A stretch of 64,000 bases of DNA from Lepidogalaxias salamandroides (Eukaryota), in the NCBI GenBank assembly GCA_049190665.1, contig CM110852.1. The stretch is one strand, 5' to 3'. Of the stretch, positions 36,701-39,700 are shown piece by piece. Position 1 is the first letter of the stretch; the number at the start of each line of letters is the position of its first letter. The position numbers were made by a program.

Positions 36701-39700
36701 GCTGAAGCGGGTCTTCTCTTTAACACCAGAACCTACCAAAACACATCAACACCACACATTATCTCATCATCACATGTATACGATCACCACACACATTATC
36801 TCATCACCACATGTATACGATCCCCACACACATTATCTCATCCCCACATGTATACGATCCCCACACACATTATCTCATCCCCACATGTATACGATCCCCA
36901 CACACATTATCTCATCACCACTGTAGCAATCTCTCAGCTACCCACCACCGAAAGTGTCTTGTGCAGGGCTCCTCCGAAGGACAGGACACAGGTGGATGTT
37001 GAAAACCGGTTTATTGTAAGGATGAACAAATGGATTGTTTGCCAGAGCAGGTGGTATCTTGCTGACATGTAGCACTCTGTCCTGAGTGTGTGTGGTGATG
37101 CTGGTTTAACCTGTGGGCTTGATTGCTAAATGCACCACAGGTGTGCAGCCTCACTCAGCCCCAGAGTCTAATCAGCCTGACCAGGTGAGGCTGCTTAAAC
37201 CAGCCACCAACCACACACACTCCACAGTTACATGTATACAATCACCACACACATTATCATATAATTACATAATCACATATCATCTGCTATTTTGTACTCT
37301 TGTTTCATTGTATGTAATGGCAGAGATTAGGGATTAAAAAGTACAACCATAATCATATAAACATAAATCTATGCATTGTTATATGAAGACAAGTCCAGAT
37401 ATTGTGGCCAAGGTTTAGCAAATTGTTATTTTTATGTACATATTTACAAGTAAACTTGGGTGGGCAGCAGGGGCCGCTGTGCTCTGCTCTGCTCTCCTTT
37501 TCTCCTCCAGCCCTCTCTTCTCCTCCAGCCCTCTCTTCTCCTCTAGCCCTCTCTTCTCCTCCAGCCCTCTCTTCTCCTCCAGCCCTCTCTTCTCCTCCAG
37601 CCCTCTCTTCTCCTCCAGCCCTCTCTTCTCCTCCAGCCCTCTCTTCTCCTCTAGCCCTCTCTTCTCCTCCAGCCCTCTCTTCTCCTCCAGCCCTCTCTTC
37701 TCCTCCAGCCCTCTCCTCTCCTCCAGCCCTCTCTTCTCCTCCAGCCCTCTCCTCTCCTCCAGCCCTCTCTTCTCCTCCAGCCCTCTCCTCTCCTCCAGCC
37801 CTCCCTTCTCCTCCAGCCCTCTCTTCTCCTCCAGCCCTCTCTTCTCCTCCAGCCCTCCCTTCTCCTCCAGCCCTCTCTTCTCCTCCAGCCCTCTCTTCTC
37901 CTCCAGCCCTCTCCTCTCCTCCAGCCCTCTCTTCTCCTCCAGCCCTCTCTTCTCCTCCAGCCCTCTCCTCTCCTCCAGCCCTCTCTTCTCCTCCAGCCCT
38001 CTCTTCTCCTCCAGCCCTCTCCTCTCCTCCAGCCCTCTCTTCTCCTCCAGCCCTCTCTTCTCCTCCAGCCCTCTCTTCTCCTCCAGCCCTCTCTTCTCCT
38101 CCAGCCCTCTCCTCTCCTCCAGCCCTCTCTTCTCCTCCAGCCCTCTCTTCTCCTCCAGCCCTCTCTTCTCCTCCAGCCCTCTCTTCTCCTCCAGCCCTCT
38201 CTTCTCCTCCAGCCCTCTCTTCTCCTCTCCAGCCCTTTCTTGTCCTCTCCCCTGCTCCCCAGGACTTGTCATGTTGTACTTATTATATCTGACAGTAATT
38301 ATGAAATAAAAAAATAAATATATATATATATTATAATGATGACCCTGTTGATCAGAGGCGGACCGACCTGCTGTTCTGAGACGGATGTCGATGCTCCCAG
38401 CTGCGGTGGAGGCGCTGATGCTGCAGGTGTACACCCCACCGTCGCTGCTCAACACGCCCGTCATCAGCAGGGAGCCGTTACCCCTCGCCACAGCGTTCGG
38501 AAACACGTGGGTCCTTCCATCAAACTGGGGGTTCTGGTCCGCTAGCTGCGGAGCGCCTTCCTGGTATTTGTACACCACACCGCTCAGATTAGCCCTGGTC
38601 CAGGTGACCTCCACAGCCCCTGTCACCTGCACCGCCGTGGTCAGGTAACAGCTGAGCAGGACGTCCTCTCCCAGGTTGGCCACTGGGTTCCTGTCCTTGC
38701 TCTCGACGTTTGATGAGGAGGAGGAGGAGTCTGGAACACAGCAGCCATGTTGTTTTACTACCGACTGTAAAGGATGGATTGACAGGCAGACAGACAGACA
38801 TACAGATAGACAGGCAGCCAAACATACAGATCGACAGGCAGACAGACAGACATACATGCAAAAGAATGGACAGGCAGACAGACAGAGGGCCATACGGATA
38901 GACAGGCAGACAGACATACGGATAGACAGGCAGACATATAGACAGATGGATACAGGCAGACAGATGTATAGACAGGCAGATGGATATACAGATACACAGA
39001 TACGCTGGCAGAAACACAGTCAGGCAGAAAGAAAAACAGGCAGACTGGCAAGCAGGAACACAGACAGACAGACAGACAGACAGACAGATCTCTAGTTGCA
39101 GTGGAGCCAAGAGCAAACAAGAACAGAGAGAGTTGCCGCTGAGCAGACATGGAGATGCATAATGAAGACTCTTACCGCTCAAACCCACGGCGAGCAACAA
39201 GATGATGAAGGCAGAGCAAACTATGATAAGAACGATCATACTGCAAAAGAAGTAGATACAGAGAAATCATGAGGCCATGTTGAATCACTTCAGTATGTAC
39301 GCCTACACGCTTGAATTGAAAAAGTCTTAACATTCAAATTCCCAGAGGACCATGAAGGTATTTCAAGAGAGGTTCAACCACAACACACCTCCAGAAGATG
39401 ATGTCACCCATTGAAGCCATGGTTGCCGACAGGAATGGAGAAAATAAACAAACCAGGTGTCGGTGAACCGCTTCGTTCGGCCACCTGCACCTCTGTTCAG
39501 GAATGTTCTGCTCTCTAACCCACAGCTCTTTCACTGCATCTGGGCAAAGGCAGGAGGTGTAGTTTAACTGTACTCCCTGTGTCAATATTACCCCAAGGAA
39601 GAACATTTGAATAGACCATTAGTCAAATGTTTTGGATTGCTTTCTTTGGCATGTGTGCAAGAAAATGATGCCTCACCTCAGCCCCAGAGTCTAATCAGTC

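What the first reader, a model, noticed from the sequence alone, without database searches (positions are those of the whole stretch)
38368..39239. B7/butyrophilin-like IgV gene fragment directly upstream of the TRIM gene; downstream exons not found
The signal exon and V-set exon are well formed, with phase 1 and 1 and the GNxSL...DxGxYxC signature. Downstream of the IgV donor at 38368 the sequence is the 18-bp minisatellite and other repeats. No IgC, TM or B30.2 exon was recognised before the TRIM gene starts at 36034. Butyrophilin-TRIM neighbourhoods are a recurring vertebrate theme, since both carry or partner B30.2 domains. This could be a decaying gene, a V-only secreted product, or exons I missed.
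Basis: partly seen in the sequence, partly recalled or inferred. Interest (0 to 1): 0.55.

Follow-up and report, generated by a model that had tools for sequence, protein, structure and literature searches.

The report
B7-H4 gene missing its IgC exon
This is the fish version of the immune-checkpoint gene VTCN1 (B7-H4), in its usual place next to TRIM45, but it has lost its second immunoglobulin exon and has a premature stop before its membrane tail, so at most it makes a small secreted one-domain protein and is probably a gene starting to decay.

Summary
The signal and IgV exons are real and intact on the minus strand (39240-39176, 38730-38368; phases 1/1).

The gene is the VTCN1/B7-H4 orthologue. 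It is 100% identical to GenBank KAM9158624.1 (171 aa), and its best PDB match by sequence and fold is human B7-H4 IgV (4GOS). The TRIM gene downstream is TRIM45, which carries a filamin domain and no B30.2. MAN1A2 exon 1 follows. So this is conserved VTCN1-TRIM45 synteny, not a butyrophilin/B30.2 neighbourhood.

Collinear loci from a hake-like fish and Arctogadus carry a 252-nt IgC exon between the IgV and terminal exons. In the window that stretch is replaced by about 1 kb of AT-rich DNA, a 41-copy 18-bp minisatellite and unique sequence. No IgC relic is detectable. The loss is in frame.

A second lesion, TCA>TGA at 36679-36677, truncates the hydrophobic C-tail, whose codons remain conserved after the stop.

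The IgV shows no excess of amino-acid changes compared with intact orthologues, so the lesions are recent or a secreted V-only product is still used. This is a lineage-specific truncation of a known gene, of modest interest.

The parts
39389..39420 (-). VTCN1 exon 1 (32 nt): start codon ATG at 39420-39418, encodes MASMGDIIFW plus 2 nt, GT donor
   Evidence: It matches residues 1-10 of KAM9158624.1/P0001 and of Megalops and human VTCN1 in tblastn. The amino acids are identical in the hake-like L002, with 97% nt identity.
39176..39240 (-). VTCN1 exon 2 (65 nt): hydrophobic signal/anchor segment S-MIVLIIVCSAFIILLLAVGLS, AG acceptor, GT donor, phase 1 out
   Evidence: Exact translation. Kyte-Doolittle maximum 3.25 over 19 aa. 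AlphaFold models a helix at residues 4-33. Homologous to the 65-nt exon of L002 at 6783-6847.
38781..39089 (-). Low-complexity (CTGT/GACA-type) repeat filling most of intron 2
   Evidence: Tandem Repeats Finder. Intron 2 still aligns with L002 and L003.
38368..38730 (-). VTCN1 IgV exon (363 nt), phase 1 in and 1 out, intact
   Evidence: Exact translation. Pfam V-set E=2.6e-11. PDB 4GOS (human B7-H4 IgV) is the best hit by sequence, E=3.9e-16, and by fold, TM 0.90. pLDDT is above 90 across most of the domain. All columns invariant in 12 teleost VTCN1 proteins are kept.
38341..38367 (-). Stub of ancestral intron 3: GT donor plus about 20-27 nt still homologous to relatives
   Evidence: The alignment of sequence downstream of the donor in the window, L002, L003, L005 and L006. 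blastn homology with L002 and L003 stops at 38361 and 38365.
37343..38340 (-). Replacement block where the rest of intron 3, the IgC exon and the 5' part of intron 4 should be. It consists of an AT-rich stretch (about 38340-38248), the 18-bp minisatellite (38247-37500, 41 copies) and 157 nt of unique sequence (37499-37343)
   Evidence: It has no homology to L001-L004 or to the rest of the window. The minisatellite unit occurs nowhere else. There is no Ig signal by tblastn or Pfam. L002 (8225-8476) and L003 (about 7276-7560) have the 252-nt IgC exon at this position.
36733..37342 (-). Retained 3' part of ancestral intron 4: a 37-bp tandem array (36925-36753, plus one unit at 37258-37230) split by an interspersed-repeat insertion (about 37226-36953), then the acceptor ttttggtag
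   Evidence: The 37-bp array is homologous to intron 4 of L003 (7713-7910) and L002 (9197-9265). Copies of the interspersed repeat lie at window 4766-4978, 39670-39755 and 45029-45061, and at L002 2029-2263.
36677..36732 (-). VTCN1 terminal exon as now coding: (G)SGVKEKTRFSFSTGPPL followed by a premature TGA at 36679-36677
   Evidence: It matches the C-terminus of KAM9158624.1. It is collinear without indels with the L002 terminal exon. The stop codon is TCA (Ser) in L002 and TCG (Ser) in Arctogadus.
36617..36676 (-). Relic of the hydrophobic C-terminal tail, now behind the stop: PSKCLVPLSSLLIYAIGST plus the ancestral stop TGA at 36619-36617
   Evidence: 91% nt identity to L002 over the 57 nt after the stop, same frame and same final stop. 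It is comparable in hydrophobicity to the tails of intact orthologues.
28700..36019 (-). Context: the TRIM45 gene (ATG at 36019; RING, 2 B-boxes, coiled coil, filamin), immediately downstream on the same strand. The low-coordinate end (about 28700) is approximate
   Evidence: Pfam RING and B-box. Filamin E=1.4e-17. PDB 2DS4 'Tripartite motif protein 45' E=4.4e-30. 100% identity to 'E3 ubiquitin-protein ligase TRIM45' P0026, 620 aa.

Best explanation
**What it is.** The locus is the single-copy orthologue of VTCN1 (B7-H4, the inhibitory B7-family ligand), in its conserved position head-to-tail upstream of TRIM45. The ancestral teleost gene has five coding exons: 32 nt, 65 nt leader, about 360 nt IgV, 252 nt IgC, and 116 nt stalk plus hydrophobic tail. 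It encodes a protein of about 270-280 aa.

**First lesion (shown).** The segment from about 25 nt into intron 3, through the IgC exon, into intron 4 has been replaced. In its place is about 1 kb of unrelated AT-rich sequence, a 41-copy 18-bp minisatellite and unique sequence. Ig exons are phase 1/1, so the loss is in frame. The intact IgV donor can splice to the intact terminal-exon acceptor.

**Second lesion (shown).** A Ser codon (TCA in the hake-like L002, TCG in Arctogadus) is TGA here, at 36679-36677. It lies in the last exon, so nonsense-mediated decay is not expected. It cuts off the hydrophobic C-terminal anchor.

**Predicted product (inferred).** What remains encodes a 171-aa precursor: an N-terminal signal, one IgV domain and an 18-residue disordered tail. 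This would be a small secreted V-only B7-H4 with no membrane attachment.

**Functional state (inferred).** My reading is that this is a recently disabled gene at an early stage of decay, about 55% of the weight. The alternative, about 30%, is that the soluble V-only protein is still used. No lesion touches the leader, the IgV or any splice site.
For: **Identity**
- 100% match to GenBank KAM9158624.1, named VTCN1.
- Homologues are named VTCN1 across teleosts.
- The best PDB hit is 4GOS, human B7-H4 IgV, by sequence and by fold.
- The characteristic MASxGxIIFWS-MIVLI two-exon leader is present.

**Synteny**
- VTCN1 is followed by TRIM45 on the same strand in Megalops, Arctogadus, Polymixia, the hake-like contig and the window.
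- MAN1A2 exon 1 lies further downstream.

**Exon loss**
- L002 and L003 are collinear with the window through introns and intergenic DNA.
- The exception is the block holding the IgC exon: homology stops at 38361/38365 and resumes at about 36921-36812.
- There is no IgC signal anywhere in the 64 kb.
- All nine other full-length or nearly full-length teleost VTCN1 proteins aligned have the IgC domain. Seven also have the complete stalk and hydrophobic tail.
- The reconstructed L002 gene has five clean exons. Its protein closely matches the annotated 275-aa Merluccius polli protein.

**Nonsense mutation**
- The terminal exon is 116 nt with no indel and 88% identity to L002.
- TGA stands where L002 has TCA and Arctogadus has TCG. 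The ancestral stop is retained 60 nt further on.

**IgV still in good order**
- Lineage-specific changes are 6 synonymous / 10 non-synonymous in the window, against 12/25 and 14/22 in the two intact relatives.
- Pairwise dN/dS is 0.55-0.61, against 0.53 between the intact pair.
- pLDDT is above 90 across most of the domain.

**No paralogue**
- The search with the full-length hake-like protein returned no second VTCN1-like protein from this genome, although this genome's VTCN1 model was among its hits. This genome's TRIM45 model came up in the separate TRIM45 search.
Against: - There are no expression data. Splicing of IgV to the terminal exon is inferred from intact, conserved splice sites and from the depositor's model only.
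- Both lesions rest on one assembly. A local mis-assembly at the minisatellite, or a heterozygous or erroneous base at the TGA, cannot be excluded without reads.
- The data cannot separate 'recent pseudogene' from 'functional V-only gene'. The branch-specific dN/dS estimate is about 0.75 but rests on very few inferred changes (16 lineage-specific changes by parsimony), so it is compatible with either 0.5 or 1.
- The tail codons are still conserved behind the stop, and there is no frameshift. This argues that any loss of constraint is very young.
- An IgC exon or a second copy elsewhere in the genome, outside the window, was not searchable.
Confidence: 0.6

Rival explanations
1. It is a functional, germline-encoded soluble B7-H4. 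The in-frame loss of IgC plus the stop before the anchor convert a membrane ligand into a secreted single-IgV protein that selection still maintains, for example as a soluble inhibitory ligand or a decoy.
For: - All four remaining exons, their splice sites and the upstream region are intact and conserved.
- Both lesions remove only membrane-proximal or anchoring parts. They keep the frame and avoid nonsense-mediated decay.
- The IgV has the same synonymous to non-synonymous ratio as intact orthologues, and a shorter branch.
- Every conserved core residue is retained, and the fold is modelled confidently.
- A plasmid encoding the B7-H4 IgV domain (producing 'B7-H4 Ig') was used therapeutically in a mouse lupus model, where B7-H4 Ig alleviated disease (PMC5732181).
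Against: - The same pattern is expected if the lesions are simply recent.
- The tail codons behind the stop are still 91% identical to hake, which suggests the stop is young.
- No other teleost in the alignment has this architecture.
- A monomeric soluble V domain with no membrane-bound partner form in the genome has no obvious role (my inference).
- There are no expression data.
Confidence: 0.28
2. It is an assembly or sequencing artefact. The IgC exon and normal introns exist in the animal but were dropped or mis-joined at the minisatellite, and/or the TGA is a base error or one allele.
For: - The missing block is bordered by tandem and low-complexity repeats: the 18-bp minisatellite, AT-rich DNA and the 37-bp array. 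Such repeats are classic sites of assembly trouble.
- The evidence comes from a single assembly.
Against: - This is not a simple deletion. About 1 kb of novel sequence, including 157 nt of unique DNA, sits in place of about 1.2-1.5 kb.
- Both flanks join collinear homologous sequence in the right order and orientation.
- The 748-nt array is short compared with modern read lengths, and the contig is 38 Mb.
- The TGA is not in a homopolymer.
- The depositor's gene model uses exactly this structure.
Confidence: 0.08
3. It is a read-through or exonised isoform. The IgV donor is skipped and the exon continues into the replacement block. This would give IgV plus a short stalk, a hydrophobic stretch (YNIYIYLFFYFIITV) and a long charged (EEKRGL)n repeat tail, which would be a new anchor and tail replacing IgC and the old tail.
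For: - The IgV reading frame stays open for 317 codons past the donor, to 37417.
- Only this one of the three same-strand frames is open across the 121-nt AT-rich stretch, and only 4.2% of shuffles are stop-free.
- The hydrophobic stretch is about as hydrophobic as the ancestral tail.
- A 137-aa Merluccius merluccius model (CAL8240847.1) also reads through this donor.
Against: - The donor CAG|GTCGGT is conserved and canonical.
- A minisatellite whose unit is a multiple of 3 is trivially open in most frames.
- A 13-15-residue hydrophobic run is short for a membrane span.
- p of about 0.04 is weak.
- There are no transcript data.
Confidence: 0.04

Closest known systems
VTCN1 / B7-H4 (B7x, B7S1) of teleosts and mammals
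   Same: - Orthologous IgV domain: best sequence and fold match is 4GOS.
- The same two-exon MASxGxIIFWS leader.
- The same stalk exon, GSGV..T.FSFS.
- The same position upstream of TRIM45.
   Different: It lacks the IgC exon that every other aligned orthologue has. It also terminates before the hydrophobic C-terminal anchor. The product is 171 aa instead of about 270-280 aa.
Soluble B7-H4 of mammals (serum sB7-H4)
   Same: It would be an extracellular, non-anchored form containing the receptor-facing IgV domain. Soluble B7-H4 in patient serum is mentioned in PMC5732181.
   Different: As far as I know, mammalian soluble B7-H4 arises post-translationally or by splicing from an intact gene and keeps IgC. 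Here the truncation is hard-wired in the genome and no membrane form is encoded.
Butyrophilins / BTNL (IgV-IgC-TM-B30.2)
   Same: Related B7-superfamily IgV. BTNL8, BTN2A1 and BTN3A are weaker PDB hits, with E from 1e-12 to 1e-7.
   Different: There is no IgC, TM or B30.2 exon. VTCN1 and CD276 score better. The neighbouring TRIM has a filamin domain, not B30.2.
Unitary pseudogenes / lineage-specific immune-gene loss in gadiform fishes (MHC II, CD4, Ii loss; my recollection of Star et al. 2011 and Malmstrom et al. 2016)
   Same: A lineage-specific disabling of an adaptive-immunity gene in a genome whose nearest relatives here are gadiforms.
   Different: Those cases are complete gene losses shared by the order. 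Here intact VTCN1 is present in hake and Arctogadus, and only this lineage carries a partial, apparently recent truncation.

Membership tests
VTCN1 / B7-H4 orthologue | The IgV domain is most similar to B7-H4 among B7/BTN family members | tested here: met
   4GOS (human B7-H4 IgV) is the top PDB hit by sequence, E=3.9e-16, only just ahead of CD276 at 6.4e-16. It is also the top hit by fold, E=1e-12, TM 0.90. All named homologues are VTCN1.
VTCN1 / B7-H4 orthologue | N-terminal leader MASxGxIIFWS + hydrophobic segment, split over two small exons | tested here: met
   The exons are 39420-39389 and 39240-39176. They align with Megalops, hake, Arctogadus, Thunnus and (recalled) human VTCN1.
VTCN1 / B7-H4 orthologue | Conserved gene neighbourhood (TRIM45 immediately downstream, MAN1A2 beyond) | tested here: met
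   TRIM45 was identified. The same order is seen in L001, L002, L003 and L004. MAN1A2 exon 1 lies at 17121-16927. The human gene order is from memory only.
VTCN1 / B7-H4 orthologue | Second extracellular Ig domain (IgC / C2-set) encoded by a phase 1/1 exon after IgV | tested here: not met
   Absent. tblastn of five full-length VTCN1 proteins against the window, tblastn of three IgC exons against the interval (best E=2.5; control 1e-29 to 1e-57) and the Pfam minus-strand-frame scan all found nothing. The exon is present in L001, L002, L003 and L004.
VTCN1 / B7-H4 orthologue | Hydrophobic C-terminal tail (membrane anchor) | tested here: not met
   The tail codons are present but lie behind a premature TGA at 36679-36677. 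Intact tails are seen in hake, Arctogadus, Thunnus and other teleosts.
Butyrophilin / BTN-like | IgV-IgC-TM-B30.2 (PRY/SPRY) architecture | tested here: not met
   No IgC, TM or PRY/SPRY signal was found in 36035-37520 on the gene strand or by tblastn across the window. BTN hits are weaker than the VTCN1 hit.
   The C-terminal domain is a filamin repeat: Pfam PF00630 E=1.4e-17 and PDB 2DS4 TRIM45 E=4.4e-30. The annotated 620-aa TRIM45 has precomputed RING, B-box and Filamin domains only.
Pseudogene (unitary) | Disabling lesions (exon loss, nonsense or frameshift) relative to intact orthologues | tested here: met
   There are two lesions: loss of the IgC exon and a nonsense codon in the last exon. 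There are no frameshifts, and no lesion in the leader or IgV.
Pseudogene (unitary) | Relaxed selective constraint on the remaining coding sequence | tested here: inconclusive
   Window-specific IgV changes are 6 syn / 10 nonsyn, against 12/25 and 14/22 in intact relatives. The branch dN/dS estimate of about 0.75 rests on too few changes to distinguish it from 0.5 or 1.
Pseudogene (unitary) | Lack of expression or lack of protein | not testable with these tools
   No transcriptome or read data are available.

The most novel reading that the evidence does not exclude
A vertebrate has converted the membrane checkpoint ligand B7-H4 into a germline-encoded, secreted single-IgV protein by in-frame genomic loss of the IgC exon plus loss of the anchor. 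This soluble V-only form would be maintained by selection as the only B7-H4 in the genome. A still more exotic sub-case (about 0.04) is that the minisatellite block has been exonised, giving IgV a new hydrophobic segment and an (EEKRGL)n tail.
Probability: 0.28. Interest if true: 0.5.

Novelty: new variant of a known kind. Interest (0 to 1): 0.3.

Why it matters
B7-H4 is a conserved inhibitory ligand whose receptor is still unknown, and it is a drug target in oncology (my own knowledge).

A natural genome that keeps only the IgV domain, with no IgC and no anchor, is a small natural experiment on which parts of the molecule are dispensable. If the V-only form proved functional, it would indicate that the IgV is sufficient for whatever role the protein keeps in this fish, and it would offer a minimal natural ligand. 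If it is a young pseudogene, it adds one more lineage-specific immune-gene loss in a gadiform-like fish, a group I recall as known for remodelling adaptive immunity.

This is not a butyrophilin/B30.2-TRIM cluster. It is the ordinary VTCN1-TRIM45-MAN1A2 neighbourhood, and the 171-aa database model is a truncated gene rather than a mis-prediction.

Tried and rejected
- **Butyrophilin / NITR-like reading: rejected.** VTCN1 is the best hit by sequence, fold, naming and synteny. No B30.2 domain is present anywhere.
- **Hidden or diverged IgC exon: not found.** Four searches gave nothing. These were tblastn of five full-length VTCN1 proteins against all 64 kb at E<=100, tblastn of three IgC exons against the 1.6-kb interval alone, sensitive blastn (word size 7) of the relatives' intron 3-IgC-intron 4 block against the interval, and Pfam on the three gene-strand frames of 36035-37520. 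The minisatellite itself and the plus-strand frames were not put through Pfam. The only weak 'WFxQP' hit, at 37217-37179, belongs to an interspersed repeat that has another copy at 4937-5020.
- **Replacement block as a transposon: unsupported.** I looked for terminal inverted repeats. There are none convincing, only 13-nt inverted repeats flanking the minisatellite. There are no other copies of the block.
- **Selection test.** I tried to separate pseudogene from functional gene using Nei-Gojobori dN/dS and 3-taxon parsimony. The result is inconclusive because there are too few changes.
- **Source contig.** A look-up of the contig for P0001 returned nothing.
- **Literature.** Searches for teleost B7-H4, for VTCN1-TRIM45 synteny and for a Lepidogalaxias genome paper gave nothing specific to this locus.
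Full report
**1. What is at the coordinates**

The gene reads on the minus strand.
- The hydrophobic leader exon ends at 39176 with a GT donor in phase 1.
- The IgV exon is 363 nt, 38730-38368. It has an AG acceptor, a GT donor at 38367-38366, and phase 1 in and out.
- The IgV exon has no stop or frameshift. It carries both Ig cysteines, the Trp, GNGSL and D-G-G-V-Y-T-C.
- Pfam calls a V-set domain, E=2.6e-11.
- The 18-bp minisatellite is real: 37500-38247, 41.4 copies, 96% matches.

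Two small exons were missed.
- The leader exon actually starts at 39240, behind an AG acceptor. It is preceded by a 32-nt first exon, 39420-39389, encoding MASMGDIIFW.
- A terminal exon begins at 36732 (acceptor ttttggtag|G). It encodes (G)SGVKEKTRFSFSTGPPL and stops at TGA 36679-36677.

Together the four exons give exactly the 171-aa GenBank protein KAM9158624.1, 'V-set domain-containing T-cell activation inhibitor 1 [Lepidogalaxias salamandroides]'.

**2. Identity of the gene and its neighbour**

- The nearest solved structure by sequence is human B7-H4 IgV, 4GOS, E=3.9e-16. It is only just ahead of CD276 (6.4e-16) and clearly ahead of the butyrophilins.
- An AlphaFold model has mean pLDDT 84.9, with values above 90 across most of the IgV. 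Its best fold match is again 4GOS, TM 0.90.
- Homologues across teleosts are named VTCN1.
- The TRIM gene downstream has its ATG at 36019. It has a RING and two B-boxes and a filamin repeat, Pfam E=1.4e-17.
- Its best PDB hit is the TRIM45 filamin domain, 2DS4, E=4.4e-30.
- It is 100% identical to an annotated 620-aa TRIM45. It has no B30.2 domain.
- VTCN1 followed by TRIM45 on the same strand is also the arrangement in Megalops, Arctogadus, Polymixia and a hake-like metagenome contig.
- MAN1A2 exon 1 lies further downstream, at 17121-16927.

The adjacency is therefore ordinary conserved synteny. It is not a butyrophilin/B30.2-TRIM association.

**3. What the gene should look like**

- The hake-like contig L002 is collinear with the window at about 74-78% nucleotide identity, including introns and intergenic DNA.
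- L002 carries a clean five-exon VTCN1 of 32, 65, 360, 252 and 116 nt, with AG/GT at every splice junction, encoding 274 aa.
- That protein has the same architecture as the annotated 275-aa Merluccius polli VTCN1 and closely matches it.
- In an alignment of twelve teleost VTCN1 proteins, every full-length or nearly full-length orthologue has an IgC domain. Seven also have the complete stalk and hydrophobic tail. Only the window's protein lacks both.

**4. Lesion 1: the IgC exon is gone**

- Homology with L002 and with Arctogadus (L003) runs up to the IgV donor, stopping at 38361 and 38365. It resumes only at about 36921-36812.
- Comparison with four gadiform-type sequences shows the window keeps only the first 20-27 nt or so of intron 3. 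The other four align with each other at 57-85% over the next 200-300 nt.
- In place of the rest of intron 3, the 252-nt IgC exon and the start of intron 4, there is about 1 kb of other sequence. It consists of an AT-rich stretch (about 38340-38248), the minisatellite (38247-37500) and 157 nt of unique sequence (37499-37343). None of it is found in the relatives or elsewhere in the window.
- From about 37342 onward the 3' part of intron 4 is recognisable. Its 37-bp tandem array (36925-36753, plus a stray unit at 37258-37230) is shared with Arctogadus and the hake-like contig. An interspersed repeat (about 37226-36953) has inserted into it.
- No relic of IgC is detectable by any of the following:
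  - tblastn of five VTCN1 proteins against the whole window;
  - tblastn of three IgC exons against the interval alone, best E=2.5 against 1e-29 to 1e-57 in the positive control;
  - the Pfam scan of the gene-strand frames.
- The lost exon is phase 1/1, so IgV joins the terminal exon in frame.

**5. Lesion 2: a stop before the anchor**

- The terminal exon is collinear with L002 over all 116 nt. It has no indel and is 88% identical.
- Where L002 has TCA and Arctogadus has TCG (both Ser), the window has TGA.
- Behind the stop the old tail is still readable: PSKCLVPLSSLLIYAIGST, followed by the ancestral stop at 36619-36617. These 57 nt are 91% identical to hake.
- The stop lies in the last exon, so nonsense-mediated decay is not expected (established rule, my knowledge).
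- The predicted product is a signal peptide, one IgV domain and a disordered 18-residue tail. It has no membrane anchor, so it would be secreted (inference).

**6. State of the remaining gene**

- There is no lesion in the first exon, the leader, the IgV or any splice site. The upstream region still aligns with relatives.
- Pairwise IgV dN/dS is 0.61 (window vs hake-like) and 0.55 (window vs Arctogadus). Between the two intact genes it is 0.53.
- By three-taxon parsimony the window lineage has 6 synonymous and 10 non-synonymous changes. The intact relatives have 12/25 and 14/22. The ratio is the same and the branch is shorter.
- So either the lesions are recent or the V-only product is still constrained. 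The counts are too small to decide.

My weights are as follows.

| Reading | Weight |
|---|---|
| Early-stage decay of a disabled gene | about 0.55 |
| Functional secreted V-only B7-H4 | about 0.28-0.30 |
| Assembly or base artefact | about 0.08 |
| Read-through isoform | about 0.04 |

- The search with the full-length hake-like protein returned no second VTCN1-like protein from this genome.

**7. An oddity that feeds the least likely reading**

- The IgV frame stays open for 317 codons past the donor, through the AT-rich stretch and the whole minisatellite.
- It would encode GRSASDQQGHHYN-IYIYLFFYFIITV-RYNKYNMTSPGEQGRGQERAG-(EEKRGL)n.
- Only 4.2% of shuffles of the 121-nt stretch before the minisatellite are stop-free.
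- The donor is canonical and conserved, and 18-bp units are trivially open in most frames. I therefore treat this as probably coincidence.
- It is testable by RNA-seq.

**8. Comparison with what is known**

- It works like, and by descent is, VTCN1/B7-H4. It fails two of that family's architectural features: the IgC domain and the C-terminal anchor.
- It resembles mammalian soluble B7-H4 in outcome only. Here the truncation is genomic.
- B7-H4 Ig produced from a plasmid encoding the B7-H4 IgV domain was active in a mouse lupus model (PMC5732181). A V-only ligand is therefore not absurd.
- I found no description of a naturally IgC-less VTCN1. The 171-aa model itself is already in GenBank.

**9. 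Verdict**

It is wrong on family and on the meaning of the TRIM neighbour.

This is a lineage-specific truncated variant of a known gene. Interest is modest (0.3), unless the V-only form proves to be expressed and maintained.

Noticed in passing
whole window; compared with L002, L003, L004, L001: The source names the organism Lepidogalaxias salamandroides (KAM9158624.1 and the TRIM45 model P0026), but the sequence looks like a gadiform. IgV dS is 0.28-0.29 to a hake-like contig and to Arctogadus, against more than 1.1 to Polymixia and Megalops. Introns and intergenic DNA align with the two gadiforms, while only exons align with Polymixia and Megalops. VTCN1 is 71% and 67% identical to Merluccius and Arctogadus, against about 50% to other teleosts. 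TRIM45 is 80% and 75% identical, against 72% or less. A fish that is sister to all other euteleosts should not be this close to cods and hakes, so a sample or label mix-up is possible.
   Followed up: partly
window 37415-38917 (-): There is a 500-aa ORF. The IgV frame reads through its donor and the whole minisatellite as a hydrophobic stretch plus an (EEKRGL)n repeat. The stretch before the minisatellite is stop-free in only 4.2% of shuffles. A Merluccius merluccius model (CAL8240847.1, 137 aa) also reads through this donor.
   Followed up: partly
window 37461-37473 and 38249-38261: 13-nt inverted repeats (TGGGCAGCAGGGG / CCCCTGCTCCCCA, 92% complementary) sit immediately on both sides of the 18-bp minisatellite. 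This may be chance, or it may be a clue to how the block arose.
   Followed up: no
window 36953-37226; copies at 4766-4978, 39670-39755, 45029-45061; L002 2029-2263: An unclassified interspersed repeat of about 240-270 bp is shared with the hake-like contig. Here it has inserted into the 37-bp tandem array of VTCN1 intron 4.
   Followed up: partly
window 35899-36000 (-), TRIM45 exon 1: A 36-bp coding tandem repeat (2.8 copies, 98% matches) encodes HPAVPPPGEQNL repeats in a proline-rich N-terminal extension of TRIM45. Most other fish TRIM45 proteins cover only 86-93% of the query, so they may lack this extension.
   Followed up: no
window 35000-35438 and 32738-33165: Two intronic tandem arrays lie inside TRIM45. 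One is a 41-bp unit with 10.7 copies at 95% matches. The other is an array of roughly 85-100 bp units that is also present, and much longer, in the hake-like contig at L002 12694-13750.
   Followed up: no
window 16927-17121 (-): MAN1A2 exon 1 is present: 75% identity to my recalled human N-terminus, E=5e-25. The gene order on the minus strand is therefore VTCN1, TRIM45, MAN1A2. No further MAN1A2 exons appear in the window at E<1e-3.
   Followed up: partly
window 61755-63430 (+): The ORFs here have typical beta-tubulin sequence (for example [25 protein letters not shown] and [27 protein letters not shown]). A tubulin beta gene appears to lie at the right edge of the window. Recognised by eye only.
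   Followed up: no
window 24296-25558 (+), 40537-41424 (+), 42837-43232 (-), about 44049-44267 (-), 51092-51694 (-), 52853-54160 (-), 55291-56529 (-): There are long ORFs that look like transposable-element proteins. They resemble a Tigger/pogo-like transposase, a LINE endonuclease, gypsy-type integrase and RT/RNase H fragments, two hAT-transposase-like ORFs, and a 435-aa retroviral envelope-like ORF with a CCTF motif. Judged by eye, not tested.
   Followed up: no
window 48400-49510, both strands: A GC-rich block (57% GC) has several overlapping ORFs of 150-230 aa on both strands, for example 48961-49476 (+), which ends ...SLYHSVVDPLLVTTNGKPRKYSLDLGRRIKEQLF.... Its identity is unknown.
   Followed up: no
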